From the NCBI RefSeq assembly GCF_036365525.1, contig NC_090401.1, positions 30,711,036 through 30,775,035 on the forward strand: a DNA stretch of 64,000 bases, written 5' to 3'. Source of the DNA: Heterodontus francisci (lineage: Eukaryota). The notes beneath the pieces were generated by a model that did not search any database, was not told where the DNA came from, and worked only from the letters and a program-made list of their open reading frames with translations. Each line of letters begins with the position of its first letter. The stretch's first letter is position 1. Below, one piece after another: positions 1 to 32,474 of the stretch. Both the position numbers and the translations under genes were made by a program.

Positions 1-1984
1 CGAGGGGAACCTCACCTCAGCCCTTCAGAGAGCACCCCAACCTCCTCTTCCCCCGGCTCTATTTAATGGTGCTCGGGCAATTAATTGCCTGGCGCAGGGG
101 CCCCCATTCCTTTAAGGATAGGGTTCCCGCCTCCCAGAGCTGCTGACCAGTCAGAGGGCCGGCAGCTCAGTAGTATCAGCAGCAACACCAGGAGCGGTGG
201 CCACTTCCAGTACAAGCTGCCCAGGACCAGGACCAGCTCTGGTGCCCGGGACCTCAGGTAAGTTAATGAAGGATAGCCAGAACAATTTGAAAAGGGAGAT
301 CATGCTTGACTAATCTAATTGAATTTTTTGATGAAGTAACAGAGAAGGTTGATGAAAAGAATGTGGTGGATGTTGTTTATATAGATTTTAAGAAAGCGTT
401 TGATAAGGTACTACATAAAAGGCCGGTTAACAAAATTGAGGCTCATGGAATAGGAGGGTCAGTGTCCAATTGGATAAAAATTGGCTTAAGGACAGAAAGC
501 AGCGTGTTGTGGTGAATAGTTGTTTTTCAGACAGGAGGATGATAGACAATGGTGTTCCCCAAGGGCCAGTGCTAGGACCTCTGCTTTTTTTTTTACTATA
601 TATAAATGCCTTGGATCTTGGAATAGAGTAGAATTTCAAAATTTGAATATGACACCAAACTTGGAGGTGTGGCAAACAATGAGGATGAAATGAACTGCCT
701 GCAACAGGACACAGATAAGCTAGCAGAATGAACAGAGAGGTGGCAGATGGAATTTAATACTGACAAGTGCGAGGTGATGCATTTTGGCAGAAGGGAAAGG
801 CAATATATAATTCATGGCACAGTTCTGAAGAGTGTGCAGGAACAGAGGGGCCCATGGGTGCATATCCATCGATCTTTGAAGATGGCAGGACATATTGAGA
901 GAGTGCTTTGCAAAATATTTGGGATCTTTGGATTCATAAATAGTGGCATTGAGTACAAAAGCAGAGAAGTTATGCTGAAACTTTATAAAGCTCTGGTTAG
1001 GCCCCAACTAAAGTATTGCATCCAGTTCTGGTCCTCACACGTTAGGAAGGATGTGAGGGTCCTTGAGAAAGTACAGAGGAGATTTACCAGAATGGTTCCA
1101 GAGATGGCCGGGGGGGTGGGGGGGGGGGGGTTGGGGTTTAGTTACAAGGCTAGGTTGGGAAAGCTGCTGTTGTTCTCCTTAGAACAAAGGAGATTGAGGG
1201 GAGATTTACTAGAAGTGTACAAGATTATGACAAGCTTCGATAAGTTAGACAAGGATGTTCCCATTAACTAATAGTACAATGACTATGGGACACAGATTGA
1301 AGGTTTTAGGCAAGAGATACAGGGGGAATAAGAGGAAGATCTTTTTTGTGCAGCGAGTGTTAATGGCCTGGAATACGCTGTCCACAAGGGTAGTGGAAGC
1401 GGAGACAATCAATGACTTCAAAAGGAAATTGGATGGCCACTAGAAGGAAATAGACAGGGCTACAGGGATCAAGCAGGGGAGTGGGACTGACTGGATAGCT
1501 CTGTGGAGAGCCAGCATGGACTCGATGGGCCAAATGGCCTCCTTCTGTGCTTTAAATGACTGTATGACTCGATGTCTCTAGAAGTGTGACAGGGTCGCCA
1601 GGACCAGTACGACAGGCCTTGGCGAGGGGTGGGGGAGGCTAGTCATTGAGGGCAAGGTGGGGGGATTTTTGGAGGGGCAGCCTTTGCTGCCGGGGGCACT
1701 CTGTGGACCACAGATTGCCCACGGAGGAGGCCACCTCCAAAAGACCCCCGGAGACTACCTTGTTTTACTGGGTGACTTCCGCACATGGCATTCAACCAGC
1801 GGCAGCAGGAAGAGGCCCTTAAGGGCCTGAATTGGCCTCTGGGCGGGAAAGCTGTCTTCGACCTTTCCCTCCCCCAACAAAATCACATGATGAGGGGAAG
1901 GTGACGGGTTCTCCGCCTGCCGTTGCTATTTTTGGGGCCCCCCACCTCCATTTCTGTACCTAGGGGACCCATAAAATTCTGGCC
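1..1984. mobile_element. GC-rich PIF/Harbinger-type MITE (left end outside window), interrupted by a CR1 insertion
   Basis: Right end ATAAAATTCTGGCC (1971-1984) resembles the AAAATTCAGCCC-type terminal inverted repeat (TIR) of other copies here; internal motifs (gagctgctgaccagtcagagg, ggaagaggcccttaag) are shared with the elements at 24.5, 34.3 and 55.8 kb. Confidence 0.6.
284..1570 (+). mobile_element. CR1 LINE, 5'-truncated (RT and 3' tail), frameshifted
   Basis: ORFs 306-515 (DVVYIDFKKAFDKV), 747-1271 (LYKALVRPQLKYCIQFWS) and 1255-1443; CR1 3' tail gggccaaatggcctccttctgtgc...tatgactc. Confidence 0.95.
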
Positions 1985-2759
1985 AAAGTGCGCATATATG
2001 GGACATGGGAGCCTGGAGCTTCCTTCATGGGTGTAACCCCCAAGTTAGATCTAAAAACGTGCCAATGTCATACCCACTTTGCCAACATCAAAATATGCCC
2101 AAATATCCCTCCATTCTCACCATAATGCACCCAAATTTAAAATGAGTGTAAAAGGGCAGTAACCAAAATAAACAATTGCATCCCAAAGAAATGCCAAGCA
2201 TACACCAGTATATTTCTTCTTTGAGTTTTCAAATTTAAGTTTCATCTCATTTAACTGTCATTTATGCACATCAAGCACAGCATGTTTAGGAACCTGCAAT
2301 CAGGGAAGCTTTTCAAGCTTTAATGTGACTTATATTATTCCATTAAAATGCATTAACAGAAACAGAAAATACAGAGCGGGTCTCAGTGAGCATAATTTTT
2401 TTAAACGCTCAAAAAATTTGAACTAAAACATCAAGAAAATTACTTTGTTTCCTGCTGTGCCTGAAAATCTGTTTGCACTGTTGAGGGACACCGGACAATT
2501 TGTTAGTCGAGGCCATGGCCAGTTTCATTCAAATGCAGGGTTTGACTGACAGTCGTAAAAGATTGAGAAGGCTTGGGTGTGTTGTACTTATGAGCATAAC
2601 TCATTTATACCCAAAAATCTGCGATCCTTTAAGCCACATAATTTGTTTGCAGCCAGAAAACTCCAAGTTACAGGAAGGACAGGATTGGGCTCGGAAAAGT
2701 TGAGGACAAGTTGATGATATATCTAATCTTGATATATGGCTAAAACTTAATGAGTCCCC

Positions 2760-3020
2760 TCATGAATTGTTGAGTAACTCTCCACTCTGTATTACTGAGC
2801 GCACAGGCCAGAACACCACAGATTGGATGCCTGGGTTGTGCTGAGTTGGCTAACCCGAATTAGGGCTGCAACCGGGACACTACTGCTGACTAGTCAACTT
2901 TGGAGGTGATACAACCTGCCAAGTCTCTGTACCTGATTGCTATGCAATGACTCCCTAATGGAAATTTTGCATTTGTGGACATTGGTGAGGATGGGATTGA
3001 GCTTGGAATATCTGAGGACA
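2760..3020 (+). mobile_element. Ancient LF-SINE-like element
   Basis: tgtgctgagttggcta and cctgattgctatgcaatgac...tgtggacattggtgaggatgggattgagcttgg match my recollection of the LF-SINE consensus; highly diverged. Confidence 0.6.
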
Positions 3021-4103
3021 AGTCAGCCAGTGACAACTCATATGCGTCCCCTAGTGAGAATTTCAAGATGATCATTAGCAAAAGTTTGAAACCAGGTTGT
3101 CTGTCATTCGGCTAGTTCAGGAAGAAAAAATGTGACACAGAGAGTCACCATCTCAAGGAGGAAGGAAGGGAAACACAGAACGGGAACATATCAAAAGGCA
3201 CACTGTGGAGGAACATAAGATTGAAATGCCATTTTCAATGGAAAGTAGGGGAATGCTCATTAGGCTGTGTAGTTAACAACGCACTTATGAAATTACAGCC
3301 ATGTGTGATTTGAAACCATGCAAATTCTGAGAATGAAAATTCCTTAAAGCACGTTGGGTTTTTTTTAAACAGAGGAAAAATTTCACCCCACTGATCTTCA
3401 GAGAAATTTAAGAGCATGTCTCAGAAATTAAATGTACTACATCAAAAGCTAATCAAATTGTCAGGTACAAAAAACCCTACACTCCAGCAAAGCAGTAAAT
3501 GAAAGTCATAACTTACTACAGAACATGATACAGGTTCATAAATAAGTCATGGTGTTTATATTGCTCTTTGTAATTAGAGCAAAGCTTGTGTTTGTGTTTT
3601 CTTGTGTAGTAATAAGACAAAAGATGTAGCATCTTTATTACATTGTTAGGTTTGCTCTGCAGAGTTTTTATTGTGTACATTCTTCCTCAAAGTGGTTGGA
3701 ATGATATGCTTCCATGTCCATATGTTAAAAGGGATCCTCACCTATGAAGTTTCTTCTACTCTACAAATAATTGTCCAGTAACAAAACTGTAGGAAGCCAT
3801 TGCTGTATTTTTTCAAAAGATTATATCTATAAATGGAAACGGGAGTGCTTTCTTAATCCTGAAGGTTAAAACAATTATTATGCAGATTAGGAAATCTTCA
3901 GGGGCACAACCAAACATTGAGGTTCTTATGGTACTTAAGATGATTCTTTCACATGCAATTGTATTCTTTGTATACATGTATTCTTCCAGTGTACCTCATT
4001 CTACCATGAATGGACATTCAAATATTTTGCAACATACACCATTGCAAGCATTGGTCTATTCCCAAACCACCCACACGTATTAAGCATGTATCAGACCACA
4101 TCT

Positions 4104-5278
4104 CCAAGAAACCTGGTGACAGGGTTTATTGTGAAAGAACGAGTTGGTGATGCAGAGGTTATGATAGGTACACAACTCAAGCAGTCGCTGTCCATTCTCA
4201 TTCATCCTTCCAATGCCATAGCGCCCAAGGCAGGAGGGCCATGAGTCATGGTCGGCCCCAACCCTGGCATTAAAGTCCCCCAGCAGGAACAGATGTTCGG
4301 TATTGGGGACGCTACTAATGATATTATGGTCTTTAGCTTCAGGTGGGGAGCAGAGTGTTGGAGAATAGATGCTGAGTAGGTGTACTGGACCAGAGGCGGT
4401 GAGCAGTCGGATGGACAGTATGCGTTCTGAGCCACTTGAGGTTGGCTCTATCATGCTGAGCAAAGAGTTTCTGATGGCGAAGCCCACTCCATGCTATCTT
4501 GGTTCTTCAGGATCCCTACCCTGCCAGTAAAAGGTGTAGTCTTGCTCTCTTAGAGATCCGCTCGTAGGGAGGCGTGTCTCCTGAAGTGCTGCAATGTCTA
4601 CATTGAGTCGACTGAGCTCGTTGTTAATGATGGTGGTCTTCCGAGAATCGTTGATTTGTGTAAGGTCTTCCGACAGGCCAGGACACATAGTTCTGATGTT
4701 CCAGCTTGCAAAACGAAGGGCTGGTACCTTCTTTCCTTTTTTTTTCGTGCTGTTTGGTGCGGTGTTGCAGTCAACTTTTCGGGCAATGACCCTGAGCTCC
4801 AAGCACCCATTGAAGCAGGTGGACTGTGGCGGGACAGAACCTTATTGACTGGGGGCTTCCCGGTTTGAGGCGGGCGGTAGCTGTCCAGTGAGGTGCGATG
4901 ACCTCTCCCACCGACAAAGGCAACCCGTGGCGCCCAATCTCTACGCCAATTGAGCTGGACTTATAACCCGTAACTGCTGCCTTCCGTGTTGTTTCGGTCG
5001 CTGTAAGGTGACTATGGAGTGACCTCTCCATGGCGCATGCCTGGGCGAATTTATGGAGGTTGTGAGTTGCCCAAGAGTCAAAAGCCCCCTCTCGGCCTTT
5101 CTGGTGGGGTCCAAAGGAGTGCAGAGCATGACGTTTGGCACCGGCATGGCTGCAGGAACTGCCGGAAACATGCCAAAGGTGACACATGACCGCCTACGGG
5201 GTTCCGCTCCGGATTTTCTGTTAGGGTTTATTCCGTTCGCCTTGAACTCTCCAGAGATGCCCACAAGGCAGTGGGTTT
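4104..5278 (-). mobile_element. RTE 5' UTR and AP-endonuclease N-terminus (inverted segment)
   Basis: ORFs 4494-4802 (RFASWNIRTM, VDIAALQETRL) and 4080-4487 (LLGDFNARVG, GRMNENGQRLLELC) carry APE motifs of RTE-clade LINEs. Confidence 0.92.
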
Positions 5279-5284
5279 GTTGCG

Positions 5285-5475
5285 TGGAGGGAAGGAAGTG
5301 CGAGGGGGAGCTGGGAAGGGGGCTGCAGGGGAAGGGGGTGCGGGGGGAAGATGGTGCGAGGGGGGAGCTGGGAAGGGGTTGCAATGGGGGGAGGGGGTAG
5401 GGGAAGAGGGTGCGAGGGGGGAGCTGGGAGGGGGGAGTGGGGGGGGGAGGGTGGTGGTGGGAAGGGGGTGCAGGT
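5285..5475 (+). repeat. G-rich degenerate tandem repeat (G-quadruplex-prone)
   Basis: Recurrent gtgcgagggggagctgggaaggg unit with many runs of three or more G. Confidence 0.8.
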
Positions 5476-5639
5476 AATAAAACATTTCATCAGTTCCCAC
5501 CATCCCAGAAGACCTCGCTGTGCCTGGTGTGTTGGTTGCTGCTGTGTTTAACAGGATTCCTCATAAGGATTACTCATGGAGATGACAAAGGGAAATGGTT
5601 CATAACCCAGCACAAAACCACTGCCACACATCAATTGAC

Positions 5640-5700
5640 ATCAGCCTGGGAGAATGTTACCAGTGGAGTCCCACAGGGGTCTGCTTTGCAACCTGTTTCA
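5640..5700 (+). mobile_element. Short CR1 RT fragment inside the captured segment
   Basis: Translates SAWENVTSGVPQGSAL, the CR1 RT GVPQGS motif. Confidence 0.7.
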
Positions 5701-5732
5701 TATCTTCATAAAAACGTTGCAGCCAGGAGTCA

Positions 5733-5927
5733 CAGCTCATCCGCGTCCTCCGGGAGGTGGGCGACAGCCTTGGGCGCCAGTATCAGCAGAAATTCGCCAA
5801 CATTGCGCTGCAGATGCGCTACGAGCCGCACATCTCCCGCGGCCACTTTGAAATTGTGGCCAAGGAGCCGTTCTGCGCTGGAGTCAACTGGGGCCGGGCC
5901 GTGGCTTTTTACGTGTTCGGGGGCATC
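5733..5927 (+). pseudogene. Bcl-2-family gene fragment (BH3 through BH1)
   Basis: Frame 5712-6080 reads LIRVLREVGDSLGRQYQQKFANIALQMRYEPHISRGHFEIVAKEPFCAGVNWGRAVAFYVFGG, colinear without gaps with BCL2 [59 protein letters not shown]. No BH4 or BH2; in-frame stop upstream at 5709. Confidence 0.88.
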
Positions 5928-6419
5928 TTTTTCTCAATGCTTCCCCTCTGTACTAGGTCTTATTACCCTAGGGTTCCGCTGCTCCTTCCTCTCTGCCTCT
6001 CCTTCCTCTCTGCCTCTCTGCACTGGACTTACCGCACGCCGTGGCCGCGGACGCTCTGGACGATGAAGACAACAGGATAGAAGATCAGAGTATCACCGGC
6101 TGTACTTTGCAATGTTGTCCAGTAGAGAAGGGTAGCCCAGGCGTCCAGGAAACTGGATGTCAATTTCAGCAAAATTCAGTGCTCAATGAAGAAAGCAAAG
6201 AGCAGGTATGGCTGGGAGAGGGCAGTGGGCCCAGGTAACATTAAACTAGCTGTTAACTTGTAGTTAGGGCTACAATGTACTGATTAAAGAGCCAGGGGAA
6301 TTCAAAGAGTTTAAGAGGGTAGATTGGGGGAGAGAGCACTAAGAATGGGAGCAGATGGCCATGAATAGAGTTGCAAAGCAAGGGAGCTTCCTAGGGAGCT
6401 TGCAGTCCAGGAGCCATCT

Positions 6420-7030
6420 TGGATCATATGTCAGCCAAGAGCGACGTCTCAATTCATTCCATCTTCGCTGCCTCTGGAGAATCTTTGGCATCAGGTGGCA
6501 GGACCGTATCTCCAACACAGAAGTCCTCGAGGCGGCCAACATCCCCAGCTTATACACCCTACTGAGTCAGCGGCGCTTGAGATGGCTTGGACATGTGAGC
6601 CACATGGAAGATGGCAGGATCCCCAAGGACACATTGTACAGCGAGCTCGTCACTGGTATCAGACCCGCCAGCCGTCCATGTCTCCGCTTTAAAGACCTCT
6701 GCAAACGTGACATGAAGTCCTGTGACATTGATCACAAGTCGTGGGAGTCAGTTGTCAGCGATTGCCAGAGCTGGCGGGCAGCCATAAAGGCGGGGCTAAA
6801 GTGTGGCGAGTCAAAGAGACTTAGCTGTTGGCAGGAAAAAAGACAGAAGCGCAAGGGGAGAGCCAACTGTGTAACAGCCCTAACAACCAATTTTATCTGC
6901 AGCATCTGTGGAAGACTCTGTCACTCTAGTATTGGCCTTTATAGCCACTCCTGGCGCTGCTCCACAAACCTCTGACCACCTCCATGCGCTTACCCATTGT
7001 CTCCCGAGACAAGGAGGCCAAAGAAGAAGA
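6420..7030 (+). mobile_element. RTE LINE 3' end (RT C-terminus, terminal zinc finger, (AAG)n tail)
   Basis: ORF 6355-6975 contains RLRWLGHV and CSICGRLCHSSIGLYSH; very similar to the copy at 31427-32474. Confidence 0.95.
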
Positions 7031-7504
7031 AGACCACATCTACACATGGACTAACCATACATACCAAAGATAAACCACATCACACCAAATACCTGGGTAA
7101 TGAAGGTTGTGCAGTATCACAAGCCAATCATTTATGCATGTCTCAAATTATATATGGGCATACATGAACGCATAAACAATAAAAATCACTTAAAAATTGT
7201 GTCCAACTAATCAAGCAAACATGCCACTATGATATTTCAGTTAGAATGTATAAAAGTTCTGAGTTAAGTCAGCTTAATGGTGCCAATTATGCAATACATT
7301 GTAACATGTGGAGCCAGTGAATCAGGACAGTGTATACAAATATATGAAAGGACAAAAAAAAACAGTTGATCAATCAAGCCTGTCATGGTATAACTTACGC
7401 ATACCATGGACCTCCTTACCACCAACCAGCTGCTCAAACTCCTGGGAGGGGTACATATGTGAATATGCAAACAATGGCAATCATGTAGTAGCAGAATCCA
7501 ATGC

Positions 7505-31426: not shown

Positions 31427-32474
31427 CTTCTTTGGCCTCCTTATCTCGAGAGACAATGGGTAAGTGCCTGGAGGTGGTCAGTGGTGTGTGGAGCAGCGCC
31501 TGGAGTGGTTATAAAGGCCAATTCTGGAGTGACAGGCTCTTCCACAGGTGCTGCAGAAAAATTTGTTTGTCGGGGCTGTTACACAGTTGGCTCTCCCCTT
31601 GCGCTTCTGTCTTTTTTCCTGCCAACTGCGAAGTCTCTTCGACTCGCCAAACTTTAGCCCCGCCTTTATGACTGCCCGCCAGCTCTGGCGAACGCTGGCA
31701 ACTGACTCCCACGACTTGTGATCAATGTCACAGGACTTCATGTCGCATTTGCAGACGTCTTTGAAGCGGAGACATGGACAGCCGGTGGGTCTGATACCAG
31801 TGGCGAGCTCGCTGTACAATGTGTCTTTGGGGATCCTGCCATCTTCCATGCGGCTCACATGGCCAAGCCATCTCAAGCACTGCTGACTCAGTATTGTGTA
31901 TAAGCTGGGGATGTCGGCCGCCTCGAGGACTTCTGTGTTGGAGATACGGTCCTGCCACCTGATGCCAAGTATTCTCCGGAGGCAGCGAAGATGGAACGAA
32001 TTGAGACGTCGCTCTTGGCTGACATACGTTGTCCAGGCCTCGCTGCCATAGAGCAAGGTACTGAGGACACAGGCTTGATACACTCGGACTTTTGTGTTCT
32101 GTGTCAGTGCGCCATTTTCCCACACTCTCTTGGCCAGTCTGGACATAGCAGTGGAAGCCTTTCCCATGCGCTTGTTGATTTCTGCATCTAGAGACAGGTT
32201 ACTGGTGATAGTTGAGCCTAGGTAGGTGAACTCTTGAACCACTTCCAGAGTGTGGTCGCCAATATTGATGGATGGAGCATTTCTGACGTCCTGCCCCATG
32301 ATGTTCGTTTTCTTGAGGCTGACGGTTAGGCCAAATTCATTGCAGAGAGCCACAAACCAATCGATGAGACTCTGCAGGCACTCTTCAGTGTGAGATGTTA
32401 AAGCAGCATCGTCAGGAAAGAGGAGTTCCCTGATGAGGACTTTCCGTACTTTGAACTTCGCTCTTAGACGGGCA
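31427..32474 (-). mobile_element. RTE LINE, 5'-truncated, young
   Basis: Uninterrupted 291-aa ORF 31478-32353 (FTYLGS, TLLYGSEAW, LRWLGHV, terminal CSTC...H...C); an LFPDDA variant of the catalytic motif lies just upstream. Confidence 0.95.

What the first reader, a model, noticed from the sequence alone, without database searches (positions are those of the whole stretch)
4093..7041. One RTE insertion with 5' inversion and about 1.1 kb of captured foreign sequence
Seen: the 11-bp repeat AGACCACATCT flanks the whole block. Inside, in order: antisense RTE from mid-endonuclease back to its 5' end (4104-5278), a G-rich tract, a CR1 RT scrap, a Bcl-2 fragment, other CpG-rich DNA, then the sense RTE 3' end with its (AAG)n tail. 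Most of the RTE middle is missing. Known: this geometry matches twin-priming inversion, described mainly for L1. Inference: the gap was filled from several unrelated templates by template switching or end-joining during integration, so this RTE family may move host gene pieces.
Basis: partly seen in the sequence, partly recalled or inferred. Interest (0 to 1): 0.8.

Follow-up and report, generated by a model that had tools for sequence, protein, structure and literature searches.

The report
Jumping gene carrying host gene scraps
The odd block is one flipped copy of a retrotransposon family whose front end is built from pieces of host genes, including the cell-death gene bcl2, and has been copied well over a thousand times in this cartilaginous fish genome.

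Summary
The geometry is real: an 11-bp target-site duplication, an inverted 5' part and a sense 3' end. The idea that the gap was filled during this insertion is wrong. The 1.15-kb 'cargo' is the fixed 5' extension of an amplified RTE subfamily: all 40 scored loci match it, and 15 of 39 other copies are collinear, near full-length elements of about 4.95 kb. The window copy is a twin-priming inversion of that RNA, with 2 kb lost and only 2-4 extra bases at the inner joint. Such inversions are common here (15 of 39), although the papers read describe them mainly for mammalian L1. The Bcl-2 scrap comes from the host bcl2 exon (88% identical) and lies antisense in the element. The family's 5' tip occurs 1,576 times; two of three young copies have an intact ORF. 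A sister lineage carries separately acquired pieces of bcl2, a KCTD8-like gene and a TFIIB-repeat gene, two running into intron. So this RTE lineage does move host gene pieces, as heritable 5' ends of master elements.

The parts
4093..4103 (+). Left target-site duplication; its last 2 bases (CT) are shared with the inverted element (second-primer microhomology)
4102..5278 (-). RTE inner 5' UTR and most of the endonuclease domain (element positions about 1146-2349); in-frame stop near 4494, so this copy is dead
5279..5474 (-). C-rich (G-rich on +) variable tandem tract, part of the family's 5' UTR
5475..5504 (-). Short conserved core, nearly identical in all extension types (A, B, C, D); different distal extensions join at its outer edge
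   Evidence: 39 of 39 B-sample loci cover it
5505..5733 (.). 229-nt insert that defines subfamily B (about 90 loci) and replaces 12 nt of type A; holds a weak CR1-like RT motif at about 5596-5694 (+); donor not found
   Evidence: joint 5504/5734 also seen in contigs
5734..5925 (+). Piece of the host bcl2 coding exon (BH3 to BH1), antisense to the element
   Evidence: 88% over 192 nt to G000:C2:70329768-70329958 (L121); Pfam; nearest protein skate Bcl-2 XP_078276420.1, 69%
5926..6424 (-). Distal extension and true 5' tip of the family (starts CAAGATGG); donor unknown
   Evidence: no donor
6423..6426 (+). Inner inversion joint: 2-4 extra bases between the element's 5' tip and the sense 3' piece
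6427..7030 (+). Sense RTE 3' end (element positions 4356-4953, ORF residues about 867 to stop at 6975), short 3' UTR, AAG tail
7031..7041 (+). Right target-site duplication, overlapping the AAG tail

Best explanation
The block is one dead copy of subfamily B of an autonomous RTE LINE lineage whose RNA starts with a 1.15-kb mosaic extension. SHOWN: the extension is inherited, not made here; the copy is inverted from the RNA's 5' tip to position 2349 and joined head-to-head to the last 600 nt. INFERRED (standard model): first-strand priming on the AAG tail, second-strand priming inside the RNA at a 2-base match, the second cDNA ran to the RNA's 5' end, and the two cDNAs were end-joined; 2 kb were lost either because the first cDNA stopped early or because the template was already deleted. 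SHOWN: the lineage has exchanged its distal 5' end several times for pieces of host genes on at least three contigs (bcl2 on C2, KCTD8-like on C1, TFIIB-repeat/BRF1-like on C9), in both orientations, two of them crossing an exon end into about 40 nt of intron. INFERRED: the reverse transcriptase jumps from the element's 5' end onto unspliced host transcripts (sense pieces); twin priming inside the extension then flips pieces (antisense ones); a copy that lands behind a usable promoter becomes a new master. Order: bcl2-antisense type A, then B by a 229-nt insert and C by erosion; C is the young, large, probably recently active branch.
For: Inherited cargo: 40 of 40 scored loci match, 32 besides the window over at least 800 of 956 nt at 89-94%; of 39 fetched copies 19 run collinearly from the extension to the 3' tail, 15 are head-to-head inversions, 5 unclear; each sub-block 5475-6075 is covered in 38-39 of 39, the distal block in 26 of 39. 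Independent insertions: adjacent 9-12-nt duplications, all different, in 10 of 14 inverted copies tested (window included) and 9-13 nt in 6 of 18 uninverted. Twin priming: in 11 of 16 inversions the two breakpoints lie within 106 nt of each other on the RNA; primer microhomology in the 10 copies with a duplication is 0,3,1,0,1,4,2,1,3,2 nt, P 5e-5 against a geometric null. Donors: bcl2, KCTD8-like, 94%, 7 RTE-linked copies among 11 hits, TFIIB repeat, 95%. Polarity A to B: the 12 nt that B lacks continue the bcl2 match. Separate bcl2 captures: D majority 0 of 113 differences from the host, A 13 of 205, B 13 of 193, mostly shared, at similar copy ages of 4.0-5.3%. One backbone: bodies A-B 0.6%, A-D 1.1%, C 4.4-5.3% apart. 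Autonomy: 2 of 3 C copies have an open frame of at least 1047 aa with endonuclease and RT. Inversions inside the extension are seen directly (L165, L180; L188).
Against: The capture step itself was not observed; RNA and DNA templates cannot be told apart by exon-plus-intron pieces. Donors of 5505-5733 and 5926-6424 were not found. The window copy is one of 5 of 16 inversions with a large loss (891-3461 nt), which simple twin priming does not predict. Inversion rates are conditional on copies that keep the 5' end and differ between samples (15 of 39 B; 5 of 30 C, seen with only 1.5 kb of flank). The A-type bcl2 piece differs 6% from the host while A and D bodies differ 1.1%, which is unexplained. 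The empty site was not seen and no contig is listed across the inner joint.
Confidence: 0.85

Rival explanations
1. One reading: the gap of this one insertion was filled from several unrelated templates during integration.
For: The block does hold unrelated pieces between two RTE halves.
Against: The same pieces in the same order with the same junctions occur in uninverted full-length copies elsewhere; the B-specific junction at 5504/5505 is also in contigs of a second organism (X5, 5475-5668, 4 differences); the true inner joint has 2-4 extra bases.
Confidence: 0.01
2. Same family structure, but the host pieces were gained at the DNA level: read-through from a promoter upstream of an inserted copy (5' transduction), end-joining of genomic scraps at the 5' end, or recombination with older copies, not template jumps onto RNA.
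For: Captured pieces include intron bases; extra bases at 5' tips are common; the distal 500 nt begins with a YY1-like motif and holds a splice-donor-like GGTAAG (both recalled motifs), as a promoter-first-exon region would; both routes are discussed for plant RTE in 10.1101/2022.11.04.512097.
Against: No RTE lies within about 5 kb of the host bcl2 exon, nor beside the KCTD8-like or TFIIB-repeat donors in the 3.1 kb and 1.6 kb fetched, so simple read-through does not explain those pieces; all three donors found are coding exons, a small part of a 6-Gb genome, although coding pieces are also the easiest to recognise.
Confidence: 0.3
3. bcl2 was captured once as a whole exon in an ancestral master, and all sense and antisense pieces are deletion or inversion products of it.
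For: Pieces tile host positions 4686-5081 of L121; several begin at 4750-4762; inversions inside the extension occur; L122 and L124 share two differences from the host.
Against: D has 0 of 113 differences from the host where A and B share several; the one difference L122 shares with A/B (host position 4952) and those shared by L122 and L124 could be later changes in the host gene.
Confidence: 0.3
4. Mis-assembly or two independent insertions with a chance repeat.
For: No contig listed spans the inner joint or the whole block.
Against: An exact contig bridges the left junction with 33 nt inside the element (X1, 3300-4136; may be the source sample, so not independent); the duplication length and geometry match 9 other inverted copies.
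Confidence: 0.02

Closest known systems
L1 5' inversion by twin priming (PMC2912911 and PMC4245944, passages read)
   Same: Inverted 5' part next to the left duplication, microhomology at the second primer, breakpoints close together on the RNA, duplications of about 10-12 nt.
   Different: Here the element is an RTE-type LINE in a cartilaginous fish. PMC4245944 saw inversions only with L1 in human cells except one Nimb-2_DR insert; PMC2912911 says early top-strand cleavage could be nearly exclusive to L1. Neither tested RTE.
5' end switching of SolRTE LINEs in Nicotiana (10.1101/2022.11.04.512097, passages and section 12 read)
   Same: RTE subfamily with a conserved body and proximal UTR and several non-homologous distal 5' UTRs; template switching and host-mRNA fusion are proposed there.
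   Different: In the parts read no host donor gene is named; here donors are located, are coding exons with intron bases, and one gene recurs.
L1 5' UTR replacement in vertebrates (PMC5381506, PMC3600994: search listing only; content otherwise recalled)
   Same: Serial recruitment of new 5' ends by master elements.
   Different: Different clade; mosaic of recognisable host coding fragments here.
Pack-MULEs, Helitrons, SVA 5' transduction, U6-L1 chimeras (recalled; PMC4476161 seen as listing only)
   Same: Host exon-intron fragments amplified by a mobile element; chimeras made by template switching.
   Different: Pack-MULEs and Helitrons are DNA transposons; U6-L1 chimeras are mostly dead ends. 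Here the fragments are the standing 5' UTR of an autonomous LINE.

Membership tests
RTE-clade LINE | Single ORF with apurinic endonuclease and RT, about 1,050 aa, no ORF1 | tested here: met
   Open frame of at least 1047 aa with Exo_endo_phos and RVT_1 in young copies; relatives are mostly 1,040-1,050 aa. No ORF1 domain was found in the extension frames scanned.
RTE-clade LINE | Short 3' UTR ending in a microsatellite, not poly(A) | tested here: met
   About 55 nt then AAG repeats
RTE-clade LINE | Target-site duplications peaking at 10-12 bp (PMC4245944, citing Ichiyanagi and Okada) | tested here: met
   9-13 nt in 16 of 32 copies tested; none adjacent or unclear in the rest
RTE-clade LINE | RT phylogeny with named RTE/BovB references | not tested
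   No named RTE reference was available; hits carry no clade names
Twin-priming 5' inversion | One duplication flanking an inverted 5' part and a sense 3' part | tested here: met
Twin-priming 5' inversion | Microhomology between the duplication's 3' end and the internal RNA site | tested here: met
   2 nt in this copy; 8 of 10 copies have at least 1 nt, P 5e-5 for the sum
Twin-priming 5' inversion | Breakpoints close together on the template | tested here: inconclusive
   Met in 11 of 16 family copies; this copy lacks 2,007 nt
Insertion-time templated filler | Cargo unique to this insertion | tested here: not met
CR1 RT fragment (5505-5733) | Clear match to a CR1 family of this genome | tested here: inconclusive
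   39% amino-acid match to the RT motif; only 172 DNA candidates, the 40 scored all covering nearly the whole insert as B copies do
Host bcl2-derived fragment | Closest to the genome's own intact bcl2 exon rather than bcl2l1 or a virus | tested here: met
   88% DNA identity to L121 with BH4 and Bcl-2 domains; best of 58 protein hits is skate Bcl-2; the bcl2l1-like locus L086 is far more distant by eye

The most novel reading that the evidence does not exclude
This RTE lineage works as an RNA-based gene-fragment sampler: it jumps onto nascent host transcripts, flips the pieces by twin priming and keeps them as its 5' UTR, and bcl2 was taken more than once because it helps the element, for example by shielding it from silencing or because antisense bcl2 RNA from more than a thousand copies changes apoptosis in germ cells.
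Probability: 0.12. Interest if true: 0.88.

Novelty: new variant of a known kind. Interest (0 to 1): 0.62.

Why it matters
First, it shows frequent twin-priming-type inversion in a non-L1 LINE outside mammals, with hundreds of natural junctions available to test what allows second-strand priming (duplication length, host repair). Second, it names host donors for LINE 5' switching in a vertebrate, so the template and the timing can be tested. Third, at least 144 non-genic copies of the bcl2 BH1 segment and many eroded ones can inflate gene-family counts and confuse bcl2 expression or small-RNA mapping in this genome. If the antisense bcl2 sequence is transcribed in germ cells, it would link retrotransposon success to apoptosis control.

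Tried and rejected
Viral Bcl-2 origin: rejected, the host exon is 88% identical. A second repeat family as Bcl-2 donor: the roughly 100 hits without the B insert are a sister subfamily of the same RTE (16 fetched, all RTE-linked). Word-based protein searches for the Bcl-2 scrap and for the D core found nothing (weak tests). Donor of the B insert: not found. Donor of 5926-6424: no Pfam family in 10 frames and no hit outside family context in about 1.05 Mb held. Rfam: one HOTAIR_2 match at 23.7 bits against a cut-off of 60, taken as chance. Empty site: flanks were not covered in runs X5, X6, X9 and no joint skipping the block is among those listed; this says nothing either way. Expression: no RNA holder listed; X6 and X9 are only guessed to be RNA, so their cover of the extension is not counted as transcription. 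Contig depth was not used as a copy number. Earlier findings: none. The name slc35e3 for part of the D core is recalled and was not confirmed by any search.
Full report
Observation. The 11-mer flanks the block at 4093 and 7031 and occurs nowhere else in the window. GC rises from about 0.35 in the flanks to 0.5-0.7 inside.

The cargo is not unique. A search of the own genome (G000, 6.0 Gb; window at C31:30711036-30775035) with 5475-6430 scored 40 of 1,961 candidates; all 40 matched, 32 besides the window over at least 800 of 956 nt at 89-94%. I fetched 9 kb around the 39 other loci and mapped them on one real full-length copy, L033 (4,953 nt). Read on the window's minus strand, the element starts at window 6424, runs through the cargo (positions 1 to about 1145) and on into the RTE UTR, ORF and AAG tail. 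Of 39 copies, 15 are near full length and collinear, 4 collinear with an internal deletion, 15 head-to-head inversions and 5 unclear. The window holds positions 1-2349 inverted and 4356-4953 sense.

Inversion mechanism. Adjacent duplications of 9-12 nt, all different, were found in 10 of 14 inverted copies tested, window included, and of 9-13 nt in 6 of 18 uninverted copies. In 16 inversions (15 plus the window) the two breakpoints lie within 106 nt of each other on the RNA in 11 and 891-3461 nt apart in 5, the window among these. One of the five (L029) fits a short internally deleted template also seen uninverted (positions about 1440 joined to 4890), so the window's 2-kb loss may also predate insertion. 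Primer microhomology in the 10 copies with a duplication sums to 17 nt, P 5e-5 under a geometric null. The window's inner joint has 2-4 extra bases. In a second sample, the first 30 exact 5' tips on contig C1, 5 of 30 are inverted (two loci are a duplicated pair; only 1.5 kb of flank seen). These rates apply only to copies that keep the 5' end.

Bcl-2 donor. The best of 58 protein hits is skate Bcl-2, 69%. Its part beyond the fragment found the intact host exon at C2:70.33 Mb, with BH4 and Bcl-2 domains. Window 5734-5925 is 88% identical to it over 192 nt; nothing else of the element matches within about 5 kb. The piece is antisense in the element.

Subfamilies. The Bcl-2 peptide matched 150 of 150 scored places (930 candidates). 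Sixteen fetched are all RTE-linked; 14 are type A, which has 12 nt where the window has 229. Those 12 nt continue the bcl2 match, so B, the window's type, is derived. B has about 90 loci (99 rows, 97 at 63% identity or more, 7 of them second rows of one locus). An exact BH1 16-mer occurs 145 times, one being the host gene. The 19-nt tip occurs 1,576 times, control 0; all 30 sampled are type C, with an eroded bcl2 remnant, 98% identical pairwise in 12 compared (the exact-match search favours young copies). Two of three C copies fetched have an open frame of at least 1,047 aa, the third one frameshift. Body majorities differ by 0.6% (A-B), 1.1% (A-D) and 4.4-5.3% (C to the others); copies lie 3.4-4.2% (A, B, D) and 0.3% (C) from their majority (105 rows kept after dropping those covering under 85% of the stretch).

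A sister lineage, D (178 candidates, 30 fetched), shares the body and the 30-nt core but has other distal ends: bcl2 in sense in 13 of 30, other bcl2 pieces in L124, L128 and L122, a KCTD8/12/16 H1-domain piece in both orientations (L131, L137) and a TFIIB-repeat piece (L139, L152). The KCTD donor is an intact gene at C1:132.28 Mb, 94% identical; 7 of 11 hits are RTE-linked, 1 the donor, 3 paralogues. The TFIIB-repeat donor lies at C9:6.857 Mb, 95% identical. Both pieces run about 40 nt past a GT that follows the end of the domain match, with stops soon after; I read this as intron (the names KCTD8 and BRF1 and their exon ends are recalled). The D bcl2 majority equals the host at 113 of 113 sites, whereas A and B differ at 13 of 205 and 13 of 193, mostly the same sites. 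That favours at least two captures of the same exon, but one old capture with unequal later change is not excluded.

Other samples. Runs of three coded organisms hold parts of the cargo. Laid contigs show the B junction in organism B (5475-5668, 4 differences) and the whole B insert with both junctions in X6 (5462-5763); organism C covers 5503-5636 and has depth over the other extension bins. So the extension is not an assembly product and is shared with at least one related organism. Expression is not shown.

Literature. PMC4245944 (passages): inversions only with L1 in human cells except one Nimb-2_DR insert; RTE duplications peak at 10-12 bp. PMC2912911 (passages): twin-priming model, near-exclusive to L1. 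10.1101/2022.11.04.512097 (passages and section 12): at least six 5' switches in tobacco RTE, host-mRNA fusion proposed. PMC6007223 and PMC5389967 (passages) cite twin priming only in their reference lists. 10.1101/2024.09.09.611499 (passages) has no RTE term and no BCL2 gene mention. Eight searches listed no paper on RTE inversions or a bcl2-bearing LINE in cartilaginous fish; only listings were seen for most. Ichiyanagi and Okada 2008, which treats RTE junctions, and Repbase were not seen, and preprint supplements were not read; either could lower the novelty.

Verdict. The single insertion is an ordinary product of its family. The family is the finding: an autonomous RTE-type LINE with frequent 5' inversion and serial 5' ends built from host exon pieces, one bcl2-bearing version amplified more than 1,500 times. 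It works like L1 twin priming plus plant RTE 5' switching; I file it as a new variant of known kinds. No function of the bcl2 piece is shown.

Noticed in passing
window 31427-32026 (-) and beyond: A second copy of the same RTE 3' end, 92% identical to 6427-7026, continuing further into the ORF.
   Followed up: partly
L039, L090, L095, L096, L106, L107, L109, L115, L158, L167, L168: Short internally deleted derivatives joining element positions about 1420-1560 to about 4740-4895; several share breakpoints (1443 to 4894; 1477 to 4751), so they look like mobilised non-autonomous subfamilies.
   Followed up: partly
L122 4854-5135 (G000:C2:3.10 Mb): A longer antisense bcl2 piece that stops exactly at the host exon's end, in an inverted D-related copy.
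   Followed up: partly
L142 about 1300-1520: The D core holds further coding-looking scraps; one resembles slc35e3 (recalled name, not confirmed).
   Followed up: partly
window 5249-5282 (-): This copy lacks about 45 nt between the C-rich tract and the inner UTR that other copies have.
   Followed up: no
L197 ORF residues 450-800: The RT region is 70-77% identical to proteins of oyster, amphioxus, shrimp, crab and bony fish, as expected for an RTE that moves between aquatic animals.
   Followed up: no
A/B bcl2 piece, window 5734-5925: The shared A/B changes leave CpG sites intact and most alter amino acids (read by eye), so they look like change in active master elements, not decay of a methylated copy or an orthologue from another species.
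   Followed up: partly
L086 (G000:C16:21.53 Mb), L193, L194: Host bcl2l1-like exon next to a tandem repeat; KCTD12/16-like paralogues.
   Followed up: no
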